64,000 bases of DNA from Thermococcus sp. JdFR-02 (GTDB lineage Archaea > Methanobacteriota_B > Thermococci > Thermococcales > Thermococcaceae): positions 161,698 to 225,697 of the forward strand of contig MTLP01000012.1 in the NCBI GenBank assembly GCA_002009975.1, given 5' to 3'. Made by a program: the position numbers and the translations under genes. The notes beneath the pieces were generated by a model, which searched no databases, had not been told where the DNA came from, and was given only the letters and a program-made list of their open reading frames with translations. Below are positions 49,878-64,000 of the stretch, piece by piece. How positions within the stretch are numbered: position 1 is the first letter of the stretch; the number at the start of each line of letters is the position of its first letter.

Positions 49878-50028
49878 TATCGAGTTACTGCATATCATTA
49901 TAAATCTCCTCTGCATAACTATCAATTATTCGCTTTTAAGATTTTTGATAATTGTACTTTAGTGAACTCTTATTATCATGAATGCATGTAATTTAGGAAC
50001 CTTGTTGATATTTTATCATTGAGTTTTC

Positions 50029-50787: not shown

Positions 50788-51452
50788 TACACACCACCCA
50801 TTAGCTTTTTCCAATATTCATTGTTATTAACTATAATCCACCATTTTCTAAGTTCCTTTCTTTTTTCCTTGTAGTCTGGATGAAATTTCTCAACAACTCT
50901 CCAAAAATCTTTGCTATGATTAAGCTCAATGAGATGGGCTAGCTCATGAGTGACAACGTAATCAATTAGTTCATCTGGTAAAGCTACTAAAGCTAAATTT
51001 AGAGCTAAATTTCCCTTTGAAGAACAACTCCCCCACTTGTTTTTGTGCTTTCTTATAAAGATCTTTTTTGGAGTCTTTCCAATTTTGGTGGTTCTTTCCT
51101 TGATTATTTTTCCAACTTTGTTCCTTAACTCTTTTTTGAGAAATCTTTCAAGGTTTTTAAGTGTAGAGACGAAGATTGTGTTCCCAACTATTTCTGTCCT
51201 TTTCCCCTCTTCAACTTTGTAGAACTTACCAAAAACAGGGAATCCGATATTTGCGTTCCTTTTATGCTTATCAATTTCCTCTAATCTCTTTAAAATCCAA
51301 TCTGATTTTAGTCTTAAAACATTCTCAACGTTCTTTCTTGGTGCCACAATCCTTAAAATTCCCTCGGGAAGTACATAGATTCTAACATATTTAACTGGTC
51401 TAATCACGACTTCATACTTTATGCTTCTTCCGTTTAGAGTAACTTCATTCAT
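50787..51452 (-). CDS. YgjP/DUF45-like zinc-dependent hydrolase
   Basis: WGSCS, YVVTHELAHL...NHS..FW. Confidence 0.88.
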   Translation of the reverse strand: MNEVTLNGRSIKYEVVIRPVKYVRIYVLPEGILRIVAPRKNVENVLRLKSDWILKRLEEIDKHKRNANIGFPVFGKFYKVEEGKRTEIVGNTIFVSTLKNLERFLKKELRNKVGKIIKERTTKIGKTPKKIFIRKHKNKWGSCSSKGNLALNLALVALPDELIDYVVTHELAHLIELNHSKDFWRVVEKFHPDYKEKRKELRKWWIIVNNNEYWKKLMGGV

Positions 51453-51516: not shown

Positions 51517-52554
51517 TTACTCCCACAGTAGATTTTTTATTAAGGGACGAAGTTTTGGATGAACATATTCTCCGTTCTCAATAATTTTTATTCCATCTCC
51601 AATTACTGTTGGATTTAGGCAGATTCCATCTGTATGGCTTTTTGCTGAACCTACTTTTCCTTTAAAGCTTTTTGCTTGGTTTCCTAAACCCCATTCCACT
51701 GCGCCCCACACTCTTTCGTCTTCTAAAATATTTCCAGTGAGCTTTGCTCCAGGATTGCATCCGTAAGAAATGTGGGCTATTCTAAACATGTTTGGATCAT
51801 TAAAACCTTTTAACCATCTTTCAAATATCTTTGCCTCTATTCCTCCTTCTATTCTCGTAATGGTTCCCTCTTCGATCTCTAATATAATTGGTTCTTTTAA
51901 TATTCCTAACTCTTGCGGGGGCCACACAGAGCCATCAAAAACTATCGTCCCGTTTATGGTTTCTTCTATTGGTGCCCAGTCAACTTGTCCAATAAGCATA
52001 TAGTCTCCAGGTCCTTGGACATCCCCTTCAGTAAAAACAGGTCTTCTTAGGTCGTTTTCAAATTCAACATCTGTTCCTGCAGGAGTTGTAATTCTCATTT
52101 TCCTTGTATTTCTTGTAATTTCTGCTAAAATTTTTTGGAATTTGAGTAGTTGGGGAATATTTACCATTCCTATGGTTCTCACAATCATATCACTTGTCAT
52201 TCCAACTAAACAGATATAACGAACAGTTCCTTGAGCCATTACGCTGTCCCAAGGTGTAGAATAAAGAAGCCAACTCTTATTGAATTCTATCCACACGTCT
52301 GCATTTTTCAAAGCAGCCTCTAAAGGTTTTAGGGGTAAGTAAGGATCAGCAGCTTTTCCAACATGAGGAGGCATTGAGTACCAAAGAACTAGAGGTTTTG
52401 CTTTTAAAATCTTAACAGCTTTTGCGGTTGCTTCAACTACATGCCAATCACTTCCAGTATCTGCAGTTATGACTACATTTTCATTCTCTTTAATTTTTAG
52501 AATATCTTTTGCTAGCTTATATGCTGCTTCTTGGACTTCTAGTGAGAGATTCAT
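51517..52554 (-). CDS. M29/aminopeptidase T-like metallohydrolase
   Basis: TPAGTD, NGTIVFDG, H.SYG.NP.A..TG.ILEDER..G, SHTDG. Confidence 0.72.
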   Translation of the reverse strand: MNLSLEVQEAAYKLAKDILKIKENENVVITADTGSDWHVVEATAKAVKILKAKPLVLWYSMPPHVGKAADPYLPLKPLEAALKNADVWIEFNKSWLLYSTPWDSVMAQGTVRYICLVGMTSDMIVRTIGMVNIPQLLKFQKILAEITRNTRKMRITTPAGTDVEFENDLRRPVFTEGDVQGPGDYMLIGQVDWAPIEETINGTIVFDGSVWPPQELGILKEPIILEIEEGTITRIEGGIEAKIFERWLKGFNDPNMFRIAHISYGCNPGAKLTGNILEDERVWGAVEWGLGNQAKSFKGKVGSAKSHTDGICLNPTVIGDGIKIIENGEYVHPKLRPLIKNLLWE

Positions 52555-52556
52555 TT

Positions 52557-53228
52557 TTAATCACCTACTGAGAAAAGGTTTAGCTCTATGATATCTTCTA
52601 ACACTTTAATTGCAGCCCCAACTGGGTCGACTATTGGAACATTGGCTGATTTTTGGAGTTCTTTAGCAAATCCCGCTAATCCAGTGCATCCAAGTATTAC
52701 AGCATTTGCTCCATCTTTAACGACTTTAGCAACTTCCTTTTTAAGAAGTTCAATGGTATAATCTCTATCGTTATTTATTTCAGGAACAGAGAGGCTTATG
52801 CCTTTAATACTTACAACTTTGTTTTCCATCTCATATCTTGCTACTAATTCGTTGAATAATGGTGGTGCTGTCTTAGAAACCGTCACAATACCGATCTTTT
52901 TTCCAATTGTAGAAGCAATTGCTAAAGAGGCTTGACACGGTCCTATTGTTGGTGTTTTAATCAAAGAGCGTATTACCTCAACTCCTGGATCAAGACAACA
53001 ATTCACTATTATTCCGTCATATTTCTCATGAAGTTCTAAGGCTTTCTTTACAACATGTGGAATTACTCCTACTTCTGCCTCTCTCGTCTCAATAGATTCT
53101 GGGCCGTTATCTAAACTAACTACATCAATCTCAGTGTTTGAAGAAGCAAAGCTTTGATAAATCTTTTTATCGGACTCATTCCATTTGTCTGTTCCGACGG
53201 GATTTATAATTAAAATTCGCTTTTTCAT
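52557..53228 (-). CDS. Hydantoin racemase (Asp/Glu racemase superfamily)
   Basis: INP, GPESIE, NCCLDPG, LGCTG, P.VDP. Confidence 0.88.
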   Translation of the reverse strand: MKKRILIINPVGTDKWNESDKKIYQSFASSNTEIDVVSLDNGPESIETREAEVGVIPHVVKKALELHEKYDGIIVNCCLDPGVEVIRSLIKTPTIGPCQASLAIASTIGKKIGIVTVSKTAPPLFNELVARYEMENKVVSIKGISLSVPEINNDRDYTIELLKKEVAKVVKDGANAVILGCTGLAGFAKELQKSANVPIVDPVGAAIKVLEDIIELNLFSVGD

Positions 53229-53261: not shown

Positions 53262-54353
53262 TTACTTTTCCCCATGTTTAAGTTCAATTGGCATGTACTC
53301 TATATCCAGTCCGAGATATTTTGGTCCAAATACTTCTAGACCCTTGGGAGTTCTCCATATTTCTGGCGCTGGAAATCCAATAACGGCATATTCTTTTCCT
53401 TCTTGAATGTTTGGATTCGTGACAGGTGCTCCGTCTAATGTTAAAACACTAATTAAATCTGGAATTGTGACATCTACTTCACCATTTCTCCAAGAGATTA
53501 AGTTTTCATTTTTGAACCAAATTTTGTATATTTCTCCTTTGAATTCATCAATTCCCTCAAGCTCAAATTCACCAATGGTAAAACCATTTTCATCTTTCCA
53601 ACCTGACTTCATTGCAACACCTTTAAAGAGTAAGAATCCATTTCCAGCTGTTATAAGTGCATTAATTACGTCTTCCCCTTTTTCTTTTGCAATTCTCATG
53701 GCTCTTCCTATTTTTAGGGTGTAGCTAATGGCGTTTTTTACAATCGAGTCTTTGATGTCTCTTCCTTTTATTGGATGGGATGTCACCCCTACATTGGTTT
53801 CTATTGTAGCTGCTATGGCTCTAACTATTTTTTCTGCTTGAAAATCGTTCTTAACCTTGGAAATAACTATTTCGTCTCCAAATGGTGTTACAACTGAAAA
53901 TGGCGTCATTTTAAGACCCATTATATAGAATGTGGTGTGTTGTAATTCTGGAACTGATCTTCCAGCAGGATCTCCGTCAATTATTGGGATTCCAAGTTTG
54001 GCAGCTGTTGCCAAGGCTACCGCTGTATTAGCACCACCAAGTTCAGTAGAAATCACGCCATAAAACTTTTCTCCTATATATTCTTCAAGCAGTCTAAATG
54101 ACCTTGCAGCTTCTCCATCTTCATAAACGGACTCTATCTTTCCTCTAGTTAAGGAACCAACAAAGTATGGTGTTGCAACTGTTTTGTTATCTGGTATCTC
54201 ATCCAAACTTGCTAAAAGGAATTTTCTTCCTTTCTTTACCTCTTTTTTAATTAGTTCCCATCCTTCTTTTGGATCTCCCCCACCACCAGTTCCTAAAACT
54301 GTACATCCATCAATTATATCTCTTAAATCTAATTCGTTTAGTTCTCGAACCAT
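53262..54353 (-). CDS. DUF917 family protein
   Basis: G..VLGTGGGG, ELGGAN, DGD..GR.VPE, F.NENL, PDLI. Confidence 0.85.
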   Translation of the reverse strand: MVRELNELDLRDIIDGCTVLGTGGGGDPKEGWELIKKEVKKGRKFLLASLDEIPDNKTVATPYFVGSLTRGKIESVYEDGEAARSFRLLEEYIGEKFYGVISTELGGANTAVALATAAKLGIPIIDGDPAGRSVPELQHTTFYIMGLKMTPFSVVTPFGDEIVISKVKNDFQAEKIVRAIAATIETNVGVTSHPIKGRDIKDSIVKNAISYTLKIGRAMRIAKEKGEDVINALITAGNGFLLFKGVAMKSGWKDENGFTIGEFELEGIDEFKGEIYKIWFKNENLISWRNGEVDVTIPDLISVLTLDGAPVTNPNIQEGKEYAVIGFPAPEIWRTPKGLEVFGPKYLGLDIEYMPIELKHGEK

Positions 54354-54357
54354 TTTT

Positions 54358-55041
54358 TCACCTCCCAGCAAATAGTCCCCGTTTTCCATGTCTTAGAATA
54401 AAAGATAAGGAGCGTGCAACAGAATAAGTAATTAACAATGGTTCTAAAACTGGGATCTGGTATTCTTTCCAAATCTCCTTCTTTAGCCTTTCAGCAATGC
54501 TGCTAAATCCGGTACATCCTAAAACTACTACATCAGCTCCATCTTCTATTGCCTTTACACATGCTTCTTTTGTCACGTTATAAAGCTTTTCCTCTCCAGA
54601 CATGATCTCTTTTACAGAGAATTTTACTTTTCTTACCGAAATCAGTTTTTCAAAAAGACCATATTCTCTAGTTTGCATTCTAGTCCAAGATATTACATTA
54701 TCTCCCGGTCCTATAACAGAAAAATCACCTAGCATAGCTGCAATGTGCATGGTAGTTTCCCCAGCTCCAAAAACTGGAATATCAAGGTTTTCTCTAAGCT
54801 CAAAGAGACATGGATCTGCAAAACAATTTATCACAATTGCTCGAGCGGTTTTGGGTATCAATTCTTTTAAGTTTTTCAGAATTTCTGCACATCCCCAAGT
54901 TTTTTGATAGAAGCTCTCTATAGTCTCTGGACCTTCTTTTAAAGAAACTACTTTGAACTTGTCTGTTGGATAGTATTTTAAGAGATAATTTTCAACATTC
55001 TTTTCAAAATATCCTTTTATTGGGTCTAAAATCACTATCAT
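54358..55041 (-). CDS. Hydantoin racemase (Asp/Glu racemase superfamily)
   Basis: GPETIE, NCFADP, GADVVVLGCTG. Confidence 0.85.
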   Translation of the reverse strand: MIVILDPIKGYFEKNVENYLLKYYPTDKFKVVSLKEGPETIESFYQKTWGCAEILKNLKELIPKTARAIVINCFADPCLFELRENLDIPVFGAGETTMHIAAMLGDFSVIGPGDNVISWTRMQTREYGLFEKLISVRKVKFSVKEIMSGEEKLYNVTKEACVKAIEDGADVVVLGCTGFSSIAERLKKEIWKEYQIPVLEPLLITYSVARSLSFILRHGKRGLFAGR

Positions 55042-56001
55042 CTAAATCTCCCCCGCAAAATGACATCTAACAAGATGTCCTTCCTTAACTTCAATTAGCA
55101 AGGGTTCCTTTCTTTTGCAAATCTCCTGTGCATAGGGACATCGTGTATGAAAAGGGCAACCAGCAGGTGGATTTAAGGGACTTGGAATTTCTCCTTTAAT
55201 TACGATTCTTCTCCGTTTACTTTTTTGCTTTGGATCTGGCACAGGTATTGATTGTAAGAGCATTCTAGTATAGGGATGGAGAGGATTATCAAAAACTTGT
55301 TCAATTGTTCCAAGCTCTACAATCTTTCCAAGATACATTACTCCGACTCTATTGCTTAAATATCTAACAAGACCAAGATCATGTGAGATGAATAAATAAG
55401 TCAATTTCTTTTCTTTTTGTATTTTCTCAAGCAAATTTAGTACTTGAGCTTGAACAGAAACATCTAAAGCTGAAGTAGGTTCATCTAAAACCAAGAACTC
55501 GGGTTCTAATGCTAAAGCTCTAGCAATAGCAACCCTTTGACATTGACCTCCACTTAATTCATCAGGATACTTACTTGCATGCTCCTCACTTAAGCCAACA
55601 CTTTCTAAAAGCTCTAAAACTCTATCTTCAATGTTTTTGTAGTTATACTCTTTTAAAGGCTCTGCAATTATGTCGAACACTGTCATTCTTGGGTTTAAAG
55701 AGGAATAGGGATCTTGATAAATCATTTGCATTTTAGGCTTTATTTTTTTAAGTTCTTCTTCTGAAAGTGCTGTAATCTCTATGTCATTGAAGAAAACTTT
55801 TCCATCTGTTGGTTCATAAAGTCTTAATATTGTCCTTCCAGTTGTAGATTTTCCACTTCCACTTTCTCCGACTAAAGCGAAAGTTTCTCCATCGTTTATT
55901 ATAAATGATACATCATCAACGGCTTTTAGATAAAGCGTCTTTTTTCTAATAAAGCCTTTAGTTATTGGAAAATATTTCTTCAAATGCTCAACTTTAATCA
56001 T
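55042..56001 (-). CDS. dppF: Di/oligopeptide ABC transporter ATPase (DppF/OppF-like)
   Basis: GESGSGKST, LSGGQ, DEPTSALD, HPYT, C-terminal Cys cluster. Confidence 0.9.
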   Translation of the reverse strand: MIKVEHLKKYFPITKGFIRKKTLYLKAVDDVSFIINDGETFALVGESGSGKSTTGRTILRLYEPTDGKVFFNDIEITALSEEELKKIKPKMQMIYQDPYSSLNPRMTVFDIIAEPLKEYNYKNIEDRVLELLESVGLSEEHASKYPDELSGGQCQRVAIARALALEPEFLVLDEPTSALDVSVQAQVLNLLEKIQKEKKLTYLFISHDLGLVRYLSNRVGVMYLGKIVELGTIEQVFDNPLHPYTRMLLQSIPVPDPKQKSKRRRIVIKGEIPSPLNPPAGCPFHTRCPYAQEICKRKEPLLIEVKEGHLVRCHFAGEI

Positions 56002-56965
56002 CAGGATTCCCTCCATAAAGATGACACGCAACAAAATGGCTTTCTTTATATTCTACAAGTGCTGGCTTCTTTAGTTTACAGCTATCTCTTACAAACTCAC
56101 ACCTTGGATTGAACCTACATCCACGTGGAGGACTTATTAAGCTCGGAACTTGACCTCTTAGTGGTTTAAGATGCTTTTTGTACCTTGGATCTGGAATTAC
56201 TGAAAGTAAGCCTTGAGTGTAAGGATGTAGGGGATTTTCGAAGAGTTCTTCTGTATCTGCGATTTCTACAATATTCCCAGCATACATGACCCCAACTCTA
56301 TCACAACTCTCTGCAACAACTCCTAGATCATGGGTAATTAGCAAAACGGAGAATCCAAGCTCCTCTTTTAAGTTTAAAATTAAATCTAAAATCTGTTTTT
56401 GAATTGTGACATCTAAAGCCGTTGTAGGTTCATCTGCAATTAAAAGAGAAGGATTTGAAGATAATGCCATTGCAATCATTACTCTTTGCCTCATGCCGCC
56501 ACTTAGTTCGTGTGGATAAGAATTTAAGATTCTATCAACATCAGGCAATCCAACTTCTCTTAAAAGTTCTTTAGCTTTTTTATAAGCTTCCTCTGTATCT
56601 ATTTTATTATGCGTGGTTATTATGTCTATCATCTGTTCTTTGATCTTAAAAAGGGGATTTAAGGAAGTCATGGGGTCTTGAAAAATTATTGAGATTTCTT
56701 TCCCCCTTATTTTTCTCATTTCTTCTTCTGATTTTTTAAGCAAATCTTTACCTTTGAAGATTATTTTTCCTGAAATTTCTGCATTTGAAGGTAAAAGCCT
56801 AAGAATACTCATGGCAGTTACACTCTTTCCACAGCCTGTTTCTCCAACTAAACCAAATACTTCTCCCTCATATATCTTTAAATTAACTCCATTTAATACC
56901 TTCACGAGTCCCCAGAGGGTTCTAAAGTTAACGTAGAGGTTTTCTATTGACAAAAGTTCCTTCAT
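55994..56965 (-). CDS. dppD: Di/oligopeptide ABC transporter ATPase (DppD/OppD-like)
   Basis: [34 protein letters not shown]. Confidence 0.9.
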
Positions 56966-57816
56966 AGGAACTTCCTCCTTAATCTTGGGTCCATAATTTC
57001 CCTTAAGGCATCACCAAGCAGATTAAAAGCCATAACTGTGATGAATATAGCCAGACCAGGAAAAACTGGATACCACGGATAGTTAAGGAAGTATTCCTTT
57101 CCTTCGCTTACCATTAAACCCCAATCGGGTGTTGGAGGTTGAACGCCCAAACCAAGAAAGCTTAAAGCTGCAGCTTCAAGTATTGCTGAACCAATGTCCA
57201 TTGTAGCCTGAATTATTAGTGGAGAAATGGAGTTTGGAAGTACATGTCTGAATATAATTTTCCATTCGCTTATCCCCATTCCTTTTGCAGCTTCAACATA
57301 AGGTCTTTCTTTTATTGAAATTGCCATTCCTCTAACAAGTCTTGTATACCATGGCCACCAACTTATAGATAGAGCAAGAATTGCATTAATAAGGCCTCTT
57401 CCAAGAGTAGTGGCAATTAGTAAAGCTAAAAGCAAGGGTGGGAAGGCTAGAAATATGTCTGTTATTCTCATTATTATTAAATCAATTTTTCCACCATAAT
57501 AACCAGCTATTAACCCTAGGGGGAGTCCTATTAATATTGCTAATAAGACTACTGAAAAGCCTATAAGTAAAGAAGTTCTTGAACCATAGATTACTCTGCT
57601 AAGTATATCTCTTCCTAAGTGATCAGTTCCAAAAAAGTGCTTAGAGCTTGGTGGTTGTAATCTCTCTTTAAGATTTGGTTCTCCCTTTGCTTGCTCGGGG
57701 TAAGGGGCTAAGAGTGGTGCAAATATTGCAATGAATAAAAGGATTAAAATAATCATCAAGCCTACAACCGAAAGCTTATTTCTAAAGAGTATCTTAATGA
57801 ACTCTTTTTTCCTCAT
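56962..57816 (-). CDS. dppC: Di/oligopeptide ABC permease (DppC-like)
   Basis: GTDHLGRD, EAA motif, LSFLGLG.QPP.PDWG. Confidence 0.9.
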   Translation of the reverse strand: MRKKEFIKILFRNKLSVVGLMIILILLFIAIFAPLLAPYPEQAKGEPNLKERLQPPSSKHFFGTDHLGRDILSRVIYGSRTSLLIGFSVVLLAILIGLPLGLIAGYYGGKIDLIIMRITDIFLAFPPLLLALLIATTLGRGLINAILALSISWWPWYTRLVRGMAISIKERPYVEAAKGMGISEWKIIFRHVLPNSISPLIIQATMDIGSAILEAAALSFLGLGVQPPTPDWGLMVSEGKEYFLNYPWYPVFPGLAIFITVMAFNLLGDALREIMDPRLRRKFL

Positions 57817-57825
57817 TTTTCTCCC

Positions 57826-58845
57826 TCACAACTGAATTCTTGGGTCAAGGCAAACTTGAATCAAATCAACAATCAAGTTTATGAAAACATAGGCAGTTGC
57901 AGCAACAATCGTAACACCTAAAACTGCTGGATAATCCATACTAAGAATGGAGTATGCCGCATATCTTCCTAAACCGGGCCAATTAAAGATTAATTCTACC
58001 AAAAATGCTCCAATTAGTGTATATGCAAAGGATAAACCTATTGTAATTAAAGCTGGTGCAATTGCATTTTTTAATGCATATTTGAAGTAAATCCTCTTTT
58101 TTGGTAATCCATAAGCCCAAGCGGTTCTAATATAATTCTCTTGCAAAACTTCAATCATCATCGATCTCACTTGTCTTGTTATCAGCCCAATTGGGTACAT
58201 GGCAAGTGTTATCGCTGGGAGTATCATATGCTTAAGTACATCAACAAATACTACAAAGTTCCCAGTTACAAGTGAATCAAATAAGTAAAACCCAGTAATC
58301 ACCTTTAGTGGATGTTCAAGCATTGTTATTGTGTCCACTCTTCCTGCAAGAGGAAGTAGATGTAAATATTTGAAAAATATTAATTGTAACACGATTCCAA
58401 ACCAAAAAGTTGGTAGAGATACTCCACTTATTGCTAATACTCTACTTAAGTTGTCCAACCATGAATCCTTTTTAACAGCGGAATAAACTCCGAGAGGGAT
58501 ACCAATTAAGATTGCAATGAACTCAGCAAATAGAATCAATTCAAAGGTTGCAGAAAAAGCAGATTTTAAATCTTGAGCTACTGGATTGTGAGTTCGTATT
58601 GATATCCCTAAATCTCCATGGAGAAGACCAACAAGGTAGTAATAATATTGTTTTATCAATGGCTCATTCAAATGTAGCTCCTCTCTAGCTTTCTCAATAG
58701 CTTCTACCGTTGGATGTGCACCCACCCATAATGCTGCAGGATCAGAAGGGATAACTCTGGAAATAAAAAATACAATTGTAACAACACCAAAAATCACAAG
58801 TATTGAAAGCATGAGTCTGTAAGCGATGTATTCTTTGAGCTTCAT
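57826..58845 (-). CDS. dppB: Di/oligopeptide ABC permease (DppB-like)
   Basis: GDLG.S, S.P.FW, E.IF.WPGLG, DPRI. Confidence 0.9.
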   Translation of the reverse strand: MKLKEYIAYRLMLSILVIFGVVTIVFFISRVIPSDPAALWVGAHPTVEAIEKAREELHLNEPLIKQYYYYLVGLLHGDLGISIRTHNPVAQDLKSAFSATFELILFAEFIAILIGIPLGVYSAVKKDSWLDNLSRVLAISGVSLPTFWFGIVLQLIFFKYLHLLPLAGRVDTITMLEHPLKVITGFYLFDSLVTGNFVVFVDVLKHMILPAITLAMYPIGLITRQVRSMMIEVLQENYIRTAWAYGLPKKRIYFKYALKNAIAPALITIGLSFAYTLIGAFLVELIFNWPGLGRYAAYSILSMDYPAVLGVTIVAATAYVFINLIVDLIQVCLDPRIQL

Positions 58846-58883
58846 TTTTATACCCCCTGATTAAATAAAAAATAAAGATAAGG

Positions 58884-60491
58884 CTAAGATCTCTTGTGTA
58901 GGTCGTAGAAGAACACTACTTGTGGATATCCTGGGTTAGATTCAAATCCGACTATACTTTTGTGGATGACATACACATCGTCGGGGTTATAGAAGAAAAT
59001 TGCCGCTGCATCTTCGACTAGTATTTCTTCTGCTTTTTTGTATAATTCTTTAGCTTTTTCTACATCAGTACCTTCAAATGTTACAGCTTCATCAATCAGT
59101 TTATCAAACTCTGGATTACAGTAATAGCATAGGTTAAAGTTTATTGTTTCTTCACAGTGAAACATGTTAAAGAGGAAATCGTATGGTGTTGGATAGGTTG
59201 GCCACCAGTAGAAGATAAGGATATCTTGAGCTTTTTGTGGATCACTTTTAGCTAAAGCCCATTGTTGCTCCCAGTTCATTGGTCTAATTTCCAACTCAAT
59301 TCCTAATTTTGACCATTCTGCCTTGAGAAGCTCAGCAACTTTTTTCTCAGCTTGATCGCCTTGAGTATACGTTAACACAAGCTTAAATCCACCATTAGGA
59401 TATCCTGCTTCTGCTAAAAGTTCCTTAGCTTTGTCAATATTGTGCTCATAAGTTTTCATGTCCTCAAAATAACCCAACATTCCTTTTGGAATTGGACCCT
59501 TTGCTATTGAGCCGTAGCCATGTAAAACATATTCTACAATCTGATCATATGGAACAGCATAACTTAGTGCTTGTCTAACAAGTTTGTTGTCTAAAGGTGG
59601 TTTTTTCGTATTTAGCATTCCATACAATTCTTGATAAGAAGGAGTTTGCTTAACGATAACATTTGGATCTTTCTGAAGTTTTGGTAAGTCATCCAATGGT
59701 AAGTCTCTTGTAATGTGTATTTCCCCACTAACAACCATTTGTTCTCTTAAAGATGAATCTGGGACAATCTTTATTATTGCAACATCAAATTGATCCTCTT
59801 TCCAGCCTCCCCAATACTCGTCAAACTTTTTAAGGACGACTTCAGTTTTTGGATCATATTTCTCTATCATATAGGGTCCAGTTCCTGCATCATGACCTTG
59901 ATTGAGGTAGTCTGCTATGGCATTATCATCACCAATTTTTGAAAGTTCTTTGCTATCCATTATATAAGCACCATAAGCTGAAGAGGCTATTAACGGTAAG
60001 TTTGCTGGATATTTCAGCTTAAACTTTATAGTATAGTCATCTAAAATCTCAATTTTTTCAATAGGATCCCATATAAAAGCTGGTCCTTGTCCCATTCTTA
60101 TTGTTCTTTCAATTGACCATTTAACATCTGCAGCTGTCATTTCATTTCCACTATGAAACTTTACTCCTTTTCTTAAATGAAAAGTCCATTCAGTCCCATC
60201 TTCATTGCTTTCCCATGAAGTTGCAAGCCATGGCTTTAATCCCTGTGGAGTATATTTAACTAAGCACTCATAGACATTGGCGAGTGTAACTATTGAATTA
60301 GAAAACTCTGTACTAGGATCTAAGGTTATCATCTCACTTCCATATCCGTATATTACAACATTAGTGGTCTTTTTTTGTTCTGTTGTTTCAGAAGAAGGAG
60401 TGGATGTCTTTTCTCCACTTATACAACCACTTGCTACAATACCTAATACAATTATTAAAGACAAAGCCAAGCCAACTAATATTTTTTTCAT
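58884..60491 (-). CDS. dppA: Family 5 peptide-binding lipoprotein (DppA-like)
   Basis: Lipobox ASGC; LDP, LRKGVKFH.G, GTGPY, VRQAL. Confidence 0.9.
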   Translation of the reverse strand: MKKILVGLALSLIIVLGIVASGCISGEKTSTPSSETTEQKKTTNVVIYGYGSEMITLDPSTEFSNSIVTLANVYECLVKYTPQGLKPWLATSWESNEDGTEWTFHLRKGVKFHSGNEMTAADVKWSIERTIRMGQGPAFIWDPIEKIEILDDYTIKFKLKYPANLPLIASSAYGAYIMDSKELSKIGDDNAIADYLNQGHDAGTGPYMIEKYDPKTEVVLKKFDEYWGGWKEDQFDVAIIKIVPDSSLREQMVVSGEIHITRDLPLDDLPKLQKDPNVIVKQTPSYQELYGMLNTKKPPLDNKLVRQALSYAVPYDQIVEYVLHGYGSIAKGPIPKGMLGYFEDMKTYEHNIDKAKELLAEAGYPNGGFKLVLTYTQGDQAEKKVAELLKAEWSKLGIELEIRPMNWEQQWALAKSDPQKAQDILIFYWWPTYPTPYDFLFNMFHCEETINFNLCYYCNPEFDKLIDEAVTFEGTDVEKAKELYKKAEEILVEDAAAIFFYNPDDVYVIHKSIVGFESNPGYPQVVFFYDLHKRS

Positions 60492-60834
60492 TTTTACATT
60501 CCTCCACTACTTATCTATAGTTGCAGCCAAATTTTTACATATTGTAAGGTATGTTGTCATTTTTTGTCAGATTGACAGCTTTATGAGACATCTAGTTTAA
60601 GTTCTTGTATTTTTTACATACTTGTATCATGTATATGTAGTGAATTTTTCAAACTTGTATATGTACATTTAACATATTTAATAATATCTGTTCAAATTCT
60701 TCACAAGTATATGATAAATTTGTTCATCTATAGGGGTTTAATATTAAACACCATGAGGATTTACAGATTTGTCATTTTTGAACGACTAAAAACATTAAAG
60801 AATTAAAAATGGTAGTAATGCATAATTATGTACT
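60492..60834. promoter_or_regulatory. AT-rich control region of the ABC operon with repeated motifs
   Basis: TGTCA-GAT-TGACA palindrome (60565-60577), three CTTGTAT copies, two TGTCATTTTT copies. Confidence 0.45.
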
Positions 60835-61374
60835 CTAAACATGCTTGTATTTCATTGGTTTTGTAAAGAGTTTTGGACTAGAGACCGCTGGAAGAACTTT
60901 GTATTCTGCGATTATTTTCCGCCCTATTAAAAAGTCTTCAATTGTTTTCTTGAGTTCTTTAAAATCTTTATCAAAGAACTTTATCACGATATCATACTCT
61001 CCAATGTATTCATCGACTTCAAATACCTTTGGATTATTCACGGCTTCTTGAATAAACGCTTTGATCTCTTCCTTTTTTGAACTTTCTTTAAATTTTATTA
61101 TAACATCTGCAGAGGCTAGACCAAATTCCTCAAAGATTAGAAGACCAATAACTTGAAGATAGCCTTTTTCTTGTAGTGCAAGTCTTCTTCTCCTTGCTGT
61201 TGGAGTAGAAACTCCAACAATCCTAGCTAATTCTGTATCTGGAAGTCTCCCATTTTCCCTTAATGCCAAATATATCATTACATCTATGTCATCAAGTTCC
61301 CCTTTGCTTATCTGCTTCCAAAACTCAATTTCCTTCCTATCCCATTTCTTATCTTGCAAATTAATTTTGTTCAT
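60835..61374 (-). CDS. Lrp/AsnC family transcription regulator
   Basis: LDDID..I...LRENGR....ELA..VGVS..T.RRR, GEYD; GGAGGG RBS. Confidence 0.9.
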   Translation of the reverse strand: MNKINLQDKKWDRKEIEFWKQISKGELDDIDVMIYLALRENGRLPDTELARIVGVSTPTARRRRLALQEKGYLQVIGLLIFEEFGLASADVIIKFKESSKKEEIKAFIQEAVNNPKVFEVDEYIGEYDIVIKFFDKDFKELKKTIEDFLIGRKIIAEYKVLPAVSSPKLFTKPMKYKHV

Positions 61375-61471
61375 ATTGTTCCCTCCTTTAAATACTAATG
61401 ATAAGAATAATAACAACAGATATATAAGGTTTTAAATACAGCTATGAAACATCTGAACTCTTGTTTAAATT

Positions 61472-61675
61472 TCAATCTGTGCCTGCTATAGTTATTGCTA
61501 TCAAGACTATTTTCCATCCAATTTGAGTTCCATGTTCATTAAAGTATGGCAAAATTCTTACTCCTACATGTCTGTATTTCTCTTTAAAGTTTTCACGCAA
61601 TTTTTCAGCTATTTTCTGTAATTCCTCCTTTTCAATACTTACATTGTTTATTATAAACTCTACAATCTTTTTCAT
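61472..61675 (-). CDS. 67-aa hypothetical protein coupled to the AlbB-like gene
   Basis: ATGA overlap and GAGGAG RBS. Confidence 0.6.
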   Translation of the reverse strand: MKKIVEFIINNVSIEKEELQKIAEKLRENFKEKYRHVGVRILPYFNEHGTQIGWKIVLIAITIAGTD

Positions 61676-61974
61676 TTTCTCTCCTCTTTTATTATTTTGG
61701 CTAGCTCTCGAGATAACTCGTCTAAGAAGTTAACAAAAGCTTCTTCATCGTACATAACTAAATCTTTCTTCTCCTCAATTAATTCCTGTAATTTTAGAAT
61801 TTGCTCATTAGCCTTTCCTTCTTTTTCCATGATATCTATTAGTCTTGAGGCGGCATCAACTAATCTGAGAGGACCATAGAGTATTGGCTCATCAACACAA
61901 CCTCTGGCACTCGTAATTAAAAATGCTAAAAGCTTAAAGTGATCATCTGTTAAAATGTTCTCCAAACTTTTCAA
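61672..61974 (-). CDS. AlbB-like (DUF6092) small helical partner of cyclodipeptide oxidase
   Basis: LLAFLITSARGCVDEPILYGPLRLVDAASR matches the AlbB pattern L.SS.RG...EP..YG..R..D.A.R (recalled); strong AAGGAGGTGG RBS inside the upstream gene. Confidence 0.78.
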   Translation of the reverse strand: MKSLENILTDDHFKLLAFLITSARGCVDEPILYGPLRLVDAASRLIDIMEKEGKANEQILKLQELIEEKKDLVMYDEEAFVNFLDELSRELAKIIKEERK

Positions 61975-62479
61975 TGTGAACCACCTCCTTCAAAGGTCTT
62001 CTTTTTGGAGGTTTGGGCATAAATTTGGGATAACCTACGCTAATGATCAGCACAGGCTCAACATGGTCTGGAACATCTAAAAGCTCCTTCAATGCAAGTT
62101 TGTTAAATGAAACTACTGGACATGAACCTATACCTAATGCATAAGCTGTTAACATCATATTTTGTGCAGCCATTGAAATATCCATCAAAGCAGTCTTTAC
62201 TCCCAATTTTCCACCTCTTTTTGCCCGTTCATGATTTATACAGAGAATTATTAAAGCAGAAGGATTTCCAAAGAGTCCAGGGGATATTAATTTTATTTTT
62301 TCTATTGTGCCTTTATTTTTAACTAAAATAAATTCCCAAGGTTGAATGTTACTCCCACTTGGCGCCCAAACTCCAGCTTCAAGAATTTTCTTCAAGTCTT
62401 GCATCGGAATGTCCTTGTCTTCAAATTTCCTTATACTTCTTCTTCCTCTAATAGCTTCAAATATTTCCACCACACCCAC
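61943..62479 (-). CDS. Nitroreductase-fold flavoprotein, AlbA (cyclodipeptide oxidase A)-like
   Basis: RRSIRKF, WAPSGSN.QPW, SPGL.G.P, GIGSCPV.SF, RR...EVV; overlaps the AlbB-like gene by 32 nt. Confidence 0.82.
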   Translation of the reverse strand: MGVVEIFEAIRGRRSIRKFEDKDIPMQDLKKILEAGVWAPSGSNIQPWEFILVKNKGTIEKIKLISPGLFGNPSALIILCINHERAKRGGKLGVKTALMDISMAAQNMMLTAYALGIGSCPVVSFNKLALKELLDVPDHVEPVLIISVGYPKFMPKPPKRRPLKEVVHIEKFGEHFNR

Positions 62480-62480
62480 C

Positions 62481-63188
62481 TCAAATTCTTTTTTTAGAGT
62501 GGGGCTCTCTAAAGCTTAGTTTGCTATGAGGTAACCCCAACCTTACTAAATCTTCCGCTATCTTTAGAGCAACTAAACCTGGTTCAATTACTGGAATACC
62601 GAGTCTTTGTTGAAGTTCTTTGCCTATACCAATAAGACTACCACAACTTAATATTATCAACTCGGCTCCATCTTCTTCTATAGCCTTCTCAGATTCTTCC
62701 AAAAGCTGTTTCTTTATTTTTTCCATATCTTTTACAATATCCAAAACCAAGAACTTTGTTATTCTTATTGAGGCAAGCTTGCTTTCTAAACCGTAAATTT
62801 TAATTGCATCATACGTCTTTCCTTTTGAATTTTCATCTCCAACCCCTACAATTGAAAACTTTCTTGCAAGCATGGAAGCTACATGAAGGCTTGCTTCCCT
62901 TATTCCTACCACTGGAATTTTAAGCTTCTCTTTTATTGCAAATAATCCTGGGTCACTAAAACAATATATGATCACGGCATCATAGCCTTCTTTCTCAGCT
63001 TTTTCTGCTTCCTTTAATGTTTCCAATTCAGCCCATGCTATATCATAGTATTGCTCTATTGATTCAGGACCTCTTTTTAGATTTACCACGGTTATTTCAG
63101 TATCTGAGTCTTTGATTTCTTCATAGGCCTTCTTAATCTTCTCATTCCAAACATGAGTGGAAACTGGTACAATTACCTTTATTCTCAT
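62481..63188 (-). CDS. Hydantoin racemase (Asp/Glu racemase superfamily)
   Basis: GPESIE, YCFSDPG, GAELIILSCG, IPVIEP. Confidence 0.85.
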   Translation of the reverse strand: MRIKVIVPVSTHVWNEKIKKAYEEIKDSDTEITVVNLKRGPESIEQYYDIAWAELETLKEAEKAEKEGYDAVIIYCFSDPGLFAIKEKLKIPVVGIREASLHVASMLARKFSIVGVGDENSKGKTYDAIKIYGLESKLASIRITKFLVLDIVKDMEKIKKQLLEESEKAIEEDGAELIILSCGSLIGIGKELQQRLGIPVIEPGLVALKIAEDLVRLGLPHSKLSFREPHSKKRI

Positions 63189-64000
63189 TTTTCACCCTCA
63201 AGCAATGCTACAGCAGCAAATATCTTTGCATCTTCTACCAGATTCTCTATCTTGGCGTATTCATTTACTTGGTGTGCTGTCTCATCTACCGTACTCCAGA
63301 CTGCTGCTGGAATTCCAATTTCTCTAAAGAATGTTGCAAAAGTCCCTCCTCCAATTCCTCCAACTCTAGGTGAGATATTCCTTAGTATTTTGAGAGCCTT
63401 TACGAGCAATTTTACAATCTCAGAATCTGGAGATGTAGGCAAGGGGGCTTTACTCTTTCTAAGTACGTTAATCTCAATCTTAGCACCATACTTCTCTTCA
63501 AAGGTTTTCGCTAACTCATGTATATCTTTAAGAATCTCATCTAAGTCATGCTCTGGAAGAACACGACAATCAAAGTAAATTATATCTTCTCCGGGAATTA
63601 TGTTTATCGCATCAACGTTCTTCTCTTTTTTTGTAGGCTCAAAAGTACTTATGGGCGGATCAAATAGGTCATTTTTATCTGAATATTTTTCATAAAGCAT
63701 ATCATGCAAAGCTGTGGCAAATCTCATTCCAACTAAGTGGGCGTTTATTCCCTTCTCCGGACTCATGGCGTGAGTTTGTTTACCAATCGTTTTTACTTGA
63801 AATGCTAGCCTACTCTTCTCTGCAACTTCAATAAATGAACCATCCGAGTTACCTGCATCAGGGACTAAGACTAGGTCGTTTTTTCTAAACAACTTTGGAT
63901 GGTTTTTGATTAGCCATTTTAATCCGTACTTGCTTCCTGTTTCTTCGTCACTAACAAATGCTAGGATTATTGTTCTTTTTGGTCTTATTCCCAAGTTCAT
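63185..64000 (-). CDS. M20 (DapE/ArgE-like) metallohydrolase (partial, start beyond window)
   Basis: SDEETGS, AEK, G...HA..P..GINA, N.IPG, GGGT, AHQ.NE. Confidence 0.9.
   Translation of the reverse strand: MNLGIRPKRTIILAFVSDEETGSKYGLKWLIKNHPKLFRKNDLVLVPDAGNSDGSFIEVAEKSRLAFQVKTIGKQTHAMSPEKGINAHLVGMRFATALHDMLYEKYSDKNDLFDPPISTFEPTKKEKNVDAINIIPGEDIIYFDCRVLPEHDLDEILKDIHELAKTFEEKYGAKIEINVLRKSKAPLPTSPDSEIVKLLVKALKILRNISPRVGGIGGGTFATFFREIGIPAAVWSTVDETAHQVNEYAKIENLVEDAKIFAAVALLEGEK

What the first reader, a model, noticed from the sequence alone, without database searches (positions are those of the whole stretch)
61672..62479. AlbA/AlbB-type cyclodipeptide-oxidase pair in an anaerobic hyperthermophile lineage
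Seen: a nitroreductase gene overlaps a 100-aa helical ORF by 32 nt, and the small ORF's strong SD (AAGGAGGTGG) lies inside the upstream LKEVV codons, implying tight coupling. Known (recalled, not aligned): Streptomyces noursei AlbA has SPGVLG.P and GCPV.SF, AlbB has SSGRG..EEP..YG..R..D, and AlbAB form an enzyme filament that desaturates DKPs using O2. Both motif sets are present here. Inference: an archaeal two-component flavoenzyme, possibly filamentous, that must use another electron acceptor or work as a reductase.
Basis: partly seen in the sequence, partly recalled or inferred. Interest (0 to 1): 0.85.

Follow-up and report, generated by a model that had tools for sequence, protein, structure and literature searches.

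The report
Archaeal AlbA/AlbB-like flavoenzyme gene pair
Two overlapping genes in an oxygen-avoiding, heat-loving archaeon encode a real relative of the bacterial two-part flavin enzyme AlbAB, but this kind of pair in such archaea is already in print and its actual job is still unknown.

Summary
On the minus strand, a 178-aa nitroreductase-fold gene (61943-62479) overlaps a 100-aa gene (61672-61974) by 32 nt, with AAGGAGGTGG 6 nt before its TTG start. The small protein is DUF6092/PF19585 (1.7e-30). The best solved relatives are AlbB (7.9e-8) and AlbA (9.8e-30). The catalytic Tyr/Ser pair and the FMN-binding Arg residues are kept. The Cys that binds FMN covalently in AlbA is an Asp here, invariant in 61 of 61 relatives.

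The genome has reverse gyrase, no terminal oxidase and no cyclodipeptide synthase. The pair sits in a module found in many phyla: Opp/Dpp importer, three two-Cys racemases, DUF917 and a NicX/M29-like protein. Other Thermococcaceae carry the same genes in other orders.

Andreas & Giessen (2024) already catalogued such non-CDPS "CDO-like" pairs. They named Thermococcus, the same neighbours and the electron-acceptor question. This is therefore a new member of a known kind.

My reading: an O2-independent FMN enzyme doing the C=C/C-C redox step of an imported cyclic-amide (hydantoin- or diketopiperazine-type) utilisation pathway. The reductive direction is modestly favoured. Substrate, direction, redox partner and filament formation are untested.

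The parts
61943..62479 (-). CDOA-like subunit: nitroreductase-fold FMN protein, 178 aa, GTG start
   Evidence: PF00881 8.1e-34. Best solved hits are AlbA 8uc3_A at 9.8e-30 and NdasCDO-A 9exv_A at 1.5e-28. All 12 NCBIfam hits fall below their cut-offs. R13/R17/R160 align with AlbA R24/R28/R175, S43 with S54, C120-P121-V122 with C135-P136-V137, and D100 with C115.
61672..61974 (-). CDOB-like subunit: DUF6092/PF19585, 100 aa, TTG start, overlapping CDOA by 32 nt
   Evidence: PF19585 1.7e-30, 105.6 bits against a cut-off of 28.7. AlbB 8uc3_D 7.9e-8 and 9exv_C 2.6e-6. E29, P30, Y33, R37 and M74 align with AlbB E33, P34, Y37, R41 and M78. E29, Y33, G34 and R37 are invariant in 66 of 66 sequences.
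61981..61990 (-). Shine-Dalgarno-like AAGGAGGTGG inside the CDOA codons, 6 nt upstream of the CDOB TTG
   Evidence: Read directly from the sequence. TTG was the start called by my script for CDOB in 10 of the related Thermococci/DHVE2/Thermoplasmata loci, and ATG in most others.
62481..63188 (-). PF01177 hydantoin/allantoin-racemase-like protein (Rac1), one base upstream of CDOA
   Evidence: PF01177 4.9e-45. PDB hydantoin racemase 3qvj 2.7e-30 and allantoin racemase 5lfd 9.6e-29. Both Cys motifs are present.
63185..64000 (-). M20 metallohydrolase, N-terminus cut by the contig end, 4-nt overlap with Rac1
   Evidence: NCBIfam PRK13983 at 384 bits against a cut-off of 333, matching profile positions 142-406 of 409. 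Pfam M20 plus dimerisation domain. The contig ends at the window end. A homologue is found in only 3 of 80 related loci.
60835..61416 (-). Lrp/AsnC-type regulator
   Evidence: HTH_AsnC 1.7e-10 and HTH_24 4.8e-10. It lies next to CDOB in 5 of 80 loci (all Thermococci) and in 3 of 5 Thermococcaceae genomes examined.
55042..60491 (-). Opp/Dpp-type ABC importer: SBP5 58884-60491, permeases 57826-58845 and 56962-57816, ATPases 55994-56965 and 55042-56034
   Evidence: Pfam SBP_bac_5 1e-99, BPD_transp_1 and ABC_tran plus oligo_HPY. The SBP's nearest named solved relatives are HbpA (heme-binding protein A) and DppA dipeptide-binding proteins. An SBP5 homologue is present in 12 of the 30 related loci of at least 15 kb.
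54358..55041 (-). PF01177 racemase-family protein (Rac2)
   Evidence: PF01177 3.6e-33; two Cys motifs.
53262..54389 (-). DUF917 / S-Me-THD-like protein
   Evidence: PF06032 1.3e-45 and PF20906 9e-59. It is only distantly like the thiohydantoin desulfurases (81 bits against a cut-off of 450). It is the most frequent neighbour, in 23 of the 30 loci of at least 15 kb.
52557..53228 (-). PF01177 racemase-family protein (Rac3)
   Evidence: PF01177 1.9e-41; two Cys motifs.
51517..52554 (-). NicX / M29-aminopeptidase-T-like protein, with no hit in the held Pfam copy
   Evidence: PDB NicX 7cn3 3.6e-16. The Atlas clusters it with PF26233 NicX / 'aminopeptidase T'. E278-D279-E280 and H307-x-D309 are at least 90% conserved in 21 sequences. 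It is present in 13 of the 30 loci of at least 15 kb.

Best explanation
The two genes encode the A (FMN-binding, nitroreductase-fold) and B (DUF6092) subunits of a non-CDPS 'CDO-like' enzyme of the AlbAB type.

Shown:
- Both proteins are homologous to the solved AlbA and AlbB chains.
- The residues that build the shared active site at the A2-B2 interface are kept. These are the B-subunit Tyr33 with Glu29/Pro30/Arg37/Met74, and the A-subunit Ser43, Arg13/17/160 and Cys120-Pro-Val.
- The genes are tightly coupled.
- AlbA's FMN-linking Cys is replaced by an invariant Asp.
- The host has no cyclodipeptide synthase and no terminal oxidase.
- The gene module is conserved and permuted: Opp/Dpp importer, two-Cys racemases, DUF917 and a NicX/M29-like metalloprotein.

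Inferred:
- The proteins assemble as alternating A2 and B2 dimers, probably a filament, with non-covalent FMN.
- They transfer a hydride between FMN N5 and the C-alpha/C-beta bond of an imported 5-substituted cyclic amide (hydantoin- or diketopiperazine-like).
- They do so without O2.
- They are the one redox step of a catabolic or salvage route whose other steps are racemisation, ring hydrolysis and deacylation to amino acids.

No dedicated redox-partner gene recurs beside the pair. I therefore expect a general soluble carrier such as NAD(P)(H).

Direction: I modestly favour C=C reduction, on a reduce-then-hydrolyse logic like that of reductive pyrimidine catabolism. I put that at about 0.45, against about 0.3 for dehydrogenation.
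For: Family:
- PF19585 1.7e-30 and PF00881 8.1e-34.
- AlbB and AlbA are the top solved hits.
- PF19585 is the family Andreas & Giessen used to define CDOB (PMC11055893, section 14).

Active site:
- The residue mapping comes from the HMMER alignments, set against the residues that paper names (sections 9 and 10).
- B-subunit Y33, E29 and R37 are present in 66 of 66 sequences.
- A-subunit R13, R14, R17, N44, D100 and S124 are present in 61 of 61 sequences, and C120 in 60 of 61.

Coupling:
- 32-nt overlap with a Shine-Dalgarno site.
- The two genes are adjacent in 78 of 80 loci and overlap in 60 of 69.

Binding: the A2B2 + 2 FMN prediction scored ipSAE 0.35 against a best control of 0.00, which the tool calls 'weak support'.
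- The mark was reached by 58 of 80 solved complexes and 2 of 110 mismatched pairs.
- At 0.60 or under it was reached by only 7 of those 80 solved complexes and by both mismatches that passed.
- The runs agree in at least 96% of contacts, and the partner's pLDDT is at least 86.
- Like complexes are solved (8uc3, 9exv), so the pass may come from memory.

No covalent FMN: D100 aligns with AlbA C115 and with NdasCDO C121.

O2-independent setting:
- Reverse gyrase present; COX1 and cytochrome bd give no match; genome 99.99% complete.
- The related loci come mostly from lineages I know as anaerobic or thermophilic (my recall of their physiology, not a call): Thermococci, Desulfurococcales, DHVE2, Bathyarchaeia, Anaerolineae, Clostridia, Thermotogae, Bipolaricaulota and Atribacterota.

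Catabolic module:
- Among the 30 loci of at least 15 kb, homologues are present as follows: DUF917 in 23, NicX-like in 13, PF01177 in 13, SBP5 in 12, Opp permease in 13.
- Among the 47 loci of at least 10 kb, further recurring neighbours are HyuA (9 loci), PucR (8), HyuB (6), DUF1177 (6), AroM (5), OPT (4) and NCS1 (4). No redox protein was among the ten most recurrent clusters, which are the only ones I identified by Pfam.
- The same genes occur in different orders in 4 of the 5 other Thermococcaceae genomes examined; the fifth (L086) has only distant copies and no Opp genes within the 20 kb fetched.

Not a biosynthetic cluster: the genome has no CDPS.

Direction:
- Covalent flavin attachment is said to modulate or raise the flavin's potential so as to enable a hard oxidation (PMC11055893 section 10; PMC11760959 section 6). 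That attachment is absent here.
- The hosts lack high-potential acceptors. This is inference.
Against: - No activity, cofactor, assembly or substrate has been measured for any non-CDPS CDO-like pair. The authors themselves say these proteins may not be oxidases or dehydrogenases at all.
- The complex prediction is only weak support.
- A-subunit S43, the partner of the catalytic Tyr, is Ser in only 31 of 61 relatives (Gly in 29, Ala in 1). That part of the AlbAB mechanism is therefore not general in this clade.
- The direction argument is thermodynamic reasoning, not data. An environmental source of unsaturated cyclic amides is not established.
- The importer is of peptide type in the Thermococci, whereas NCS1 and PucR neighbours in bacteria point to nucleobase-like compounds. 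One common substrate is therefore not assured.
- M20 is a neighbour in only 3 of 80 loci and the Lrp regulator in only 5 of 80.
- Neighbour counts come from tblastn with this window's proteins only, on loci often cut by contig ends, and the loci are related to one another.
Confidence: 0.55

Rival explanations
1. Same enzyme and same module, but the physiological direction is dehydrogenation. The saturated ring is oxidised at C-alpha/C-beta with a non-O2 acceptor. The dehydro product is then hydrolysed to a 2-oxo acid, which feeds the 2-oxoacid:ferredoxin oxidoreductases of peptide fermentation.
For: Every characterised CDO is a dehydrogenase, and the catalytic Tyr (with Ser in this window) is kept. 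Andreas & Giessen propose alternative terminal acceptors for anaerobes. Racemases could feed the 'wrong' enantiomers to a stereospecific dehydrogenase. 2-Oxo acids are the entry point of Thermococcales amino-acid fermentation (established knowledge, recalled).
Against: The potential-raising covalent Cys-FMN link is absent; an invariant Asp stands in its place. No acceptor or partner gene recurs beside the pair. I know of no quinones or cytochromes in this lineage (recalled), and the genome has no terminal oxidase.
Confidence: 0.28
2. The pair still uses O2, as AlbAB does. It works only during transient oxygen exposure, either as an oxidase that also scavenges O2 or as an opportunistic activity.
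For: Characterised CDOs need O2 and show no turnover anaerobically (PMC11760959 section 6). The nitroreductase fold includes NADH oxidases, for example 1nox at 1.1e-13.
Against: This clade is found mostly in lineages I know as anaerobic (taxa; physiology recalled). It sits in an import and hydrolysis module, not next to oxidative-stress genes. H2O2 production would be costly for such an organism (inference).
Confidence: 0.08
3. It is a tailoring enzyme of a secondary-metabolite cluster, making a dehydro-cyclodipeptide or hydantoin natural product as in albonoursin biosynthesis.
For: This is the only experimentally known role of AlbAB-type enzymes. Andreas & Giessen keep this possibility open for hydantoin-containing metabolites.
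Against: There is no CDPS in a 99.99%-complete genome. The covalent-FMN Cys typical of CDPS-linked CDOs is absent. The neighbours are an importer with a binding protein, racemases and hydrolases, not synthetases or exporters.
Confidence: 0.05
4. The nitroreductase is an ordinary stand-alone NAD(P)H nitro/flavin reductase, and the DUF6092 gene is a functionally unrelated neighbour.
For: Stand-alone nitroreductases score only slightly worse than AlbA (4dn2 2.5e-26 and 3ge5 8.2e-25 against 9.8e-30).
Against: The genes are adjacent in 78 of 80 loci across many phyla and overlap in 60 of 69. The B-subunit residues that complete the AlbAB active site are invariant. CDOA is below the cut-off of every NCBIfam nitroreductase equivalog. 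AlbA alone was insoluble and AlbB alone inactive (figure-legend text in PMC11055893 section 6).
Confidence: 0.03

Closest known systems
AlbAB cyclodipeptide oxidase of Streptomyces noursei (PDB 8uc3) and NdasCDO of Nocardiopsis dassonvillei (PDB 9exv)
   Same: A two-gene A/B architecture, with a nitroreductase-fold A subunit and a DUF6092 B subunit. These are the top solved hits for both proteins. The catalytic B-Tyr, the A-Ser, the FMN phosphate Arg triad, the Cys-Pro-Val si-face strand and the B-subunit Glu/Pro/Arg/Met interface residues are all kept.
   Different: Asp100 replaces the Cys that links FMN covalently. NdasCDO Glu117 lies in an insertion that is absent here. There is no CDPS in the genome. 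The host has no terminal oxidase. The setting is a catabolic importer/hydrolase context, not a biosynthetic cluster. In the tblastn counts (HSPs only, mixed phyla), 65 of 78 CDOA matches are 34-68% identical to the window's CDOA. Identity to AlbA itself was not computed.
Non-CDPS 'CDO-like' gene clusters catalogued by Andreas & Giessen, Nat Commun 2024 (PMC11055893)
   Same: This is that class. The paper reports PF19585-defined CDOB with an adjacent CDOA in archaea including Thermococcus. It reports neighbours PF01177, DUF917/PF06032, AroM, ABC di/oligopeptide transporters, OPT and peptidases. It notes no conserved Cys115 and raises the open question of the acceptor in anaerobes (passages of sections 6, 10, 12 and 14).
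   Different: Nothing in kind. Points added here:
- the invariant Asp at the Cys115 position (61 of 61);
- a NicX/M29-like protein as a core neighbour;
- no redox partner among the most recurrent neighbours;
- patchy presence in the host's family (15 of 97 genomes);
- permuted gene order within that family;
- a mixed-phylum clade of thermophilic archaea.
Their list of 274 operons is in supplementary data I could not open, so I cannot say whether this genome is on it.
Stand-alone nitroreductases (e.g. PDB 4dn2, 3ge5) and NfsA/NfsB
   Same: The same fold and the same FMN-binding Arg residues, with E-values of 2.5e-26 and 8.2e-25.
   Different: They are homodimers that work without a B subunit. 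This protein is below every NCBIfam nitroreductase cut-off and is always paired with DUF6092.
Reductive pyrimidine/orotate catabolism (dihydropyrimidine or dihydroorotate dehydrogenase, then dihydropyrimidinase/hydantoinase, then an M20-type carbamoylase). The comparison is by analogy and is recalled, not tested.
   Same: It works like this in my favoured reading: a flavin enzyme reduces a C=C bond conjugated to a cyclic (ure)ide, so that hydrolases can open the ring. Hydantoinase-type and M20-type neighbours are present.
   Different: There is no sequence relationship to those dehydrogenases, and the substrate here is unknown.

Membership tests
CDO (AlbAB-type two-subunit flavoenzyme), broad sense as defined by Andreas & Giessen 2024 | The B subunit belongs to PF19585/DUF6092 | tested here: met
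   105.6 bits against a cut-off of 28.7, covering 84 of 86 profile positions. AlbB chains are the only significant PDB hits.
CDO (AlbAB-type two-subunit flavoenzyme), broad sense as defined by Andreas & Giessen 2024 | The A subunit is a nitroreductase-fold FMN protein encoded directly beside B | tested here: met
   PF00881 8.1e-34. AlbA is the best PDB hit at 9.8e-30. 32-nt overlap. Adjacent in 78 of 80 related loci.
CDO (AlbAB-type two-subunit flavoenzyme), broad sense as defined by Andreas & Giessen 2024 | Catalytic Tyr of B (AlbB Y37), with the conserved Glu, Pro and Arg at the FMN interface | tested here: met
   Y33, E29, P30 and R37 align with Y37, E33, P34 and R41. Y33, E29 and R37 are present in 66 of 66 relatives.
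CDO (AlbAB-type two-subunit flavoenzyme), broad sense as defined by Andreas & Giessen 2024 | A-subunit Ser that hydrogen-bonds the Tyr (AlbA S54), and the FMN phosphate Arg residues | tested here: met
   S43, R13, R17 and R160 are present in this protein. Across relatives, the Ser position is S in 31, G in 29 and A in 1 of 61.
CDO (AlbAB-type two-subunit flavoenzyme), broad sense as defined by Andreas & Giessen 2024 | A2 and B2 dimers bind each other and polymerise into a filament | tested here: inconclusive
   Complex prediction: ipSAE 0.35 against a best control of 0.00, called 'weak support', and possibly from memory of 8uc3/9exv. Polymerisation itself cannot be tested with these tools.
CDPS-associated cyclodipeptide oxidases (AlbAB sensu stricto) | Covalent 8-alpha-S-cysteinyl FMN (AlbA C115 / NdasCDO C121) | tested here: not met
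   Asp100 aligns with both Cys residues. Asp is present in 61 of 61 relatives.
CDPS-associated cyclodipeptide oxidases (AlbAB sensu stricto) | A cyclodipeptide synthase gene in the cluster or genome | tested here: not met
   PF16715 gives no match in the 99.99%-complete genome. The control rings in B. subtilis.
CDPS-associated cyclodipeptide oxidases (AlbAB sensu stricto) | O2-dependent alpha,beta-dehydrogenation of 2,5-diketopiperazines | not testable with these tools
   Needs an enzyme assay. The host lacks terminal oxidases, which argues against O2 as the routine acceptor but does not test the enzyme.
Classical NAD(P)H nitroreductases (NfsA, NfsB and relatives) | Score above the NCBIfam equivalog cut-off | tested here: not met
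   PRK10765 59.9 against 223; PRK11053 36.3 against 227; PRK10828 26.4 against 183.

The most novel reading that the evidence does not exclude
Peptide-fermenting hyperthermophiles, and many other anaerobes, carry a previously undescribed salvage pathway for cyclic amides that ordinary peptidases cannot open. Such compounds would be diketopiperazines or 5-substituted hydantoins, including heat-formed dehydro or alkylidene forms. In this pathway an O2-independent, non-covalent-FMN AlbAB-like filament acts as an ene-reductase. The invariant Asp in place of the flavin-linking Cys would tune the flavin to low potential. Racemases, DUF917 and a NicX/M29-like hydrolase would then convert the saturated ring to amino acids.
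Probability: 0.2. Interest if true: 0.7.

Novelty: new member of a known kind. Interest (0 to 1): 0.35.

Why it matters
The only experimentally understood AlbAB-type enzymes are O2-dependent tailoring oxidases of actinomycete antibiotics. By the published count, 88% of such gene pairs lie outside those clusters, and none of these has a known reaction. A thermostable pair from a strict anaerobe, with non-covalent FMN, is a convenient system for three questions: what the majority class does, what replaces O2, and whether filament formation is general. If it turns out to be a reversible C=C reductase or dehydrogenase for cyclic amides, it would also interest biocatalysis, for example in hydantoin and diketopiperazine processing at high temperature. 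As a genome-scan finding it is correct but not new in kind.

Tried and rejected
1. The 67-aa ORF at 61472-61675 overlaps the CDOB stop by 4 nt, follows a GAGGAG and has a hydrophobic C-terminus. I considered it as a third, membrane-anchoring subunit. tblastn found no homologue in any of the 80 related loci. Only 1 of 96 other genomes of the family matched, and that match (E 7.5e-6) contains 4 stops. Pfam gave no credible hit. I rejected it as part of the system.

2. Expression. Contigs of one metatranscriptomic library (X5) cover 60674-63886 in one piece, with 80 differences. The same sample's DNA run (X4) holds the locus on a 23.9-kb contig. The tool states that presence in an RNA library does not show transcription and that DNA carry-over is possible. 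These are contigs from one study only, so I do not count them as evidence of expression.

3. A dedicated redox partner. I clustered 344 unassigned neighbour ORFs from the 47 loci of at least 10 kb. I identified only the ten most recurrent clusters by Pfam. These were HyuA, HyuB, PucR, DUF1177, AroM, OPT, NCS1, a glycosyltransferase and a MoaE-like protein. None was a ferredoxin, flavodoxin or pyridine-nucleotide oxidoreductase. Rarer partners, or partners encoded elsewhere in the genome, were not excluded.

4. Literature on function. Searches for 'DUF6092/PF19585/CDOB/AlbB', 'DUF917', 'thiohydantoin desulfurase' (no papers), 'diketopiperazine + Thermococcus' and 'hydantoin racemase + Thermococc' found no experimental study of the non-CDPS class in the held library.

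5. Earlier notes of this scan: none for this place.

6. Going upstream of the M20 gene was impossible, because the contig ends at the window end.

7. The careful tree did not finish within the time limit, so only the quick tree is used.
Full report
**What is in the sequence.**
Two minus-strand ORFs occupy the reported interval.
- One is 61943..62479 (178 aa, GTG start) and the other 61672..61974 (100 aa, TTG start).
- They overlap by 32 nt in different frames.
- Upstream of the TTG, the minus strand reads AAGGAGGTGG (window 61981-61990), then six bases, then TTG.

**Family assignment.**
- The larger protein is a nitroreductase-fold protein (PF00881 8.1e-34).
- It is below the curated cut-off of every NCBIfam model it touches, including the NfsA- and NfsB-type equivalogs.
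- The small protein is a full-length member of PF19585/DUF6092 (1.7e-30, 105.6 bits against a cut-off of 28.7).
- Against all solved structures, the small protein's only significant hits are the two AlbB chains (8uc3_D 7.9e-8, 9exv_C 2.6e-6).
- The large protein's two best hits are the matching AlbA chains (8uc3_A 9.8e-30, 9exv_A 1.5e-28). Stand-alone nitroreductases follow closely (4dn2 2.5e-26).
- PF19585 is the family that Andreas & Giessen used to define CDOB (PMC11055893, section 14, read).

**Active-site and cofactor residues.**
I mapped the residues named in PMC11055893 (sections 9 and 10) through the HMMER alignments. I then checked them in alignments of 66 CDOB and 61 CDOA sequences taken from related loci.

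*B subunit:*
- The catalytic Tyr (AlbB Y37) is Y33 here.
- E33, P34, R41 and M78 of AlbB are E29, P30, R37 and M74 here.
- Y33, E29, G34 and R37 are invariant in 66 of 66 sequences.

*A subunit:*
- The FMN phosphate ligands R24, R28 and R175 of AlbA are R13, R17 and R160 here.
- The Ser that hydrogen-bonds the Tyr (S54) is S43 here. Across relatives that position is Ser in 31, Gly in 29 and Ala in 1 of 61.
- The si-face strand C135-P136-V137 is C120-P121-V122 here.

*The covalent-FMN position:*
- The Cys that carries the covalent 8-alpha-S-cysteinyl FMN (AlbA C115, NdasCDO C121) aligns with Asp100.
- This Asp is invariant in all 61 relatives.
- The paper says that only CDPS-linked CDOAs keep this Cys.

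**Do the two proteins bind?**
- A prediction of A2B2 with two FMN gave ipSAE 0.35 in the median run, against 0.00 for the best of three controls. The tool calls this 'weak support'.
- In its calibration the mark was reached by 58 of 80 solved complexes and 2 of 110 mismatched pairs.
- At 0.60 or under, only 7 of those 80 solved complexes passed, as did both mismatches that passed.
- The runs agree in at least 96% of contacts, and the partner's pLDDT is at least 86.
- Like complexes are solved, so the pass may reflect memory.
- The stronger argument for a heteromer is comparative. The genes are adjacent in 78 of 80 loci from many phyla. In the two exceptions CDOB starts within 180 bases of the locus start.
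- The genes overlap in 60 of 69 loci where both ends could be called.
- The B-subunit residues that complete the AlbAB active site are invariant.

**The organism.**
- The genome (99.99% complete, 44 contigs) encodes a reverse gyrase at 1500 bits, against a cut-off of 471.7.
- It gives no match to haem-copper oxidase subunit I or to cytochrome bd subunit I.
- The named close homologues of the small protein come from Thermococcus, Pyrococcus and Palaeococcus.
- 'Anaerobic hyperthermophile lineage' is therefore supported.
- The genome has one DUF6092 gene and no cyclodipeptide synthase.

**Surroundings in the window.**
All the genes below lie on the minus strand.

| Window coordinates | Gene product |
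|---|---|
| 63185 to beyond 64000 | M20 hydrolase, cut by the contig end |
| 62481-63188 | hydantoin/allantoin-racemase-like protein |
| 61943-62479 | CDOA |
| 61672-61974 | CDOB |
| 61472-61675 | unconserved 67-aa ORF |
| 60835-61416 | Lrp/AsnC regulator |
| 55042-60491 | five-gene Opp/Dpp ABC importer |
| 54358-55041 | second PF01177 racemase |
| 53262-54389 | DUF917 (S-Me-THD-like) |
| 52557-53228 | third PF01177 racemase |
| 51517-52554 | 345-aa protein with no hit in the held Pfam copy |
| 50787-51452 | YgjP-like metallopeptidase |

- M20, the first racemase, CDOA and CDOB are separated by -4, +1 and -32 nt.
- The 345-aa protein is related to NicX (7cn3, 3.6e-16) and clusters with 'aminopeptidase T / PF26233' proteins.
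- All three racemases keep both Cys motifs.
- The NicX-like family keeps an E-D-E and an H-x-D motif. I recall these as typical of M29/NicX metal sites; I did not test this.

**Is this neighbourhood meaningful?**
- Among the 30 related loci of at least 15 kb, tblastn with the window's proteins finds DUF917 in 23, the NicX-like protein in 13, a PF01177 racemase in 13, the binding protein in 12 and Opp permeases in 13. M20 is found in only 2 and Lrp in only 2.
- I clustered the 344 remaining neighbour ORFs from the 47 loci of at least 10 kb and identified the ten most recurrent clusters by Pfam.
- These added ATP-dependent hydantoinase/oxoprolinase A and B subunits (9 and 6 loci), PucR regulators (8), DUF1177 (6), AroM (5), OPT (4) and NCS1 permeases (4).
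- No ferredoxin, flavodoxin or pyridine-nucleotide oxidoreductase was among those ten clusters.
- In five other genomes of the host's family, the same genes appear in other orders in four. Two have Opp-Rac-DUF917-Rac-NicX-CDOA-CDOB. One has CDOA-CDOB-Lrp-Opp-Rac-DUF917-Rac-NicX. One has a further regulator and about 5 kb between the pair and the importer. The fifth (L086) holds only distant copies of the racemase, DUF917 and NicX-like genes and no Opp genes within the 20 kb fetched.
- A gene set that survives reshuffling is good evidence of a functional unit.
- The module is accessory. PF19585 is found in 15 of 97 genomes of the family, or 13 of 79 high-quality ones, counting the window's own genome.
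- In a quick tree of joined A+B sequences, the window falls in a starred (99) clade of 24 rows. That clade mixes Thermococci, DHVE2/Thermoplasmata, Desulfurococcales and Caldarchaeales, and Thermococci interleave with DHVE2 (quick method, midpoint root).
- This suggests exchange among archaea of hot habitats but does not prove it.

**What is already known.**
Andreas & Giessen (Nat Commun 2024) report the following (passages of sections 6, 10 and 12).
- The clusters are enriched in PF01177, DUF917/PF06032, AroM, ABC di/oligopeptide transporters, OPT and peptidases.
- They name Thermococcus among anaerobes carrying CDOs.
My five literature searches found no experimental work on the non-CDPS class.

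**How it most likely works.**

*Shown:* homology, retained active-site residues, loss of the covalent link, gene coupling, module conservation, and an oxygen-free host without a CDPS.

*Inferred:*
- The proteins form AlbAB-like alternating dimers with non-covalent FMN at each A2-B2 interface.
- B-subunit Tyr33 (with A-subunit Ser43 in this organism) handles the proton, while FMN N5 handles the hydride at the C-alpha/C-beta bond of a 5-substituted cyclic amide.
- That substrate is brought in by the Opp-type importer. The racemases, DUF917, the NicX/M29-like protein and, in this genome, M20 convert the ring to amino acids.
- No partner gene recurs beside the pair, so a general soluble carrier such as NAD(P)(H) is the most economical guess.

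*Direction:*
- Both papers say that covalent attachment modulates or raises flavin potential to enable a hard oxidation. Here that attachment is replaced by an invariant acidic residue.
- The hosts lack high-potential acceptors.
- I therefore modestly favour C=C reduction followed by hydrolysis, at about 0.45. This is the logic of reductive pyrimidine and orotate catabolism (recalled).
- Dehydrogenation feeding 2-oxo acids gets about 0.3.
- The Tyr/Ser machinery is compatible with either direction, and nothing here measures it.

**Verdict.**
The specific locus is a new member of a published class, so it would not surprise a specialist. The small additions from this work are:
- the invariant Asp at the flavin-linking position;
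- the NicX/M29-like core neighbour;
- the lack of a recurrent redox partner;
- the permuted, patchily distributed module in Thermococcaceae.

The open biochemical question, namely what the majority class of AlbAB-like enzymes does without oxygen, is real and is directly testable with this thermostable pair.

Noticed in passing
window 61472-61675 (-): A 67-aa ORF starts with an ATG that overlaps the CDOB stop (ATGA). It follows a GAGGAG and has a hydrophobic C-terminal stretch. No homologue was found in 80 related loci, and only one stop-ridden match in 96 genomes of the family. It is probably spurious or a very young gene.
   Followed up: yes
window 51517-52554 (-): A 345-aa protein has no hit in the held Pfam or NCBIfam copies but is related to NicX dioxygenase (7cn3, 3.6e-16) and to 'aminopeptidase T'-type clusters. 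It is one of the most constant neighbours of CDOAB pairs, including in hosts I take to be strict anaerobes, where a dioxygenase role is implausible. E-D-E and H-x-D motifs are conserved.
   Followed up: partly
window about 63856-64000 (contig end): Contigs of three public runs end or change partner at 63886-63929. Summed depth rises in the last bin (20-37, against 9-19 elsewhere), and the window's own contig ends at 64000. This suggests a repeated or paralogous stretch inside the M20 gene that breaks assemblies.
   Followed up: no
related loci L003-L038 and the window (tree): CDOA+CDOB of Thermococci, DHVE2/Thermoplasmata, Desulfurococcales and Caldarchaeales form one well-supported clade with short internal branches, and Thermococci interleave with DHVE2. 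CDOB is 52-81% identical across these phyla. This hints at transfer of the module between phyla among archaea of hot habitats.
   Followed up: partly
related loci L043, L060, L063, L067, L069, L076 and others: In Bipolaricaulota, Thermotogae and related bacteria, the CDOAB pair sits next to ATP-dependent hydantoinase/oxoprolinase A and B subunits. In Clostridia it sits next to PucR-type regulators, and in some archaea next to NCS1 permeases. The ring-opening and uptake parts of the module are swapped between lineages while CDOAB stays.
   Followed up: partly
window 53262-54389 (-): The DUF917 protein's only NCBIfam matches are to thiohydantoin and S-methyl-thiohydantoin desulfurases, far below cut-off (81 and 80 bits against 450 and 440). 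The family's characterised members, by their NCBIfam names, act on 5-substituted (thio)hydantoin rings, which fits a hydantoin-like substrate for the module.
   Followed up: no
window 49245-50814 (-): Downstream of the module lie a metallo-beta-lactamase-fold protein (50029-50814) and a DUF257 'Pyrococcus protein of unknown function' (49245-49925). Homologues were rare near CDOAB elsewhere: the 261-aa protein appears in 2 of 80 loci.
   Followed up: no
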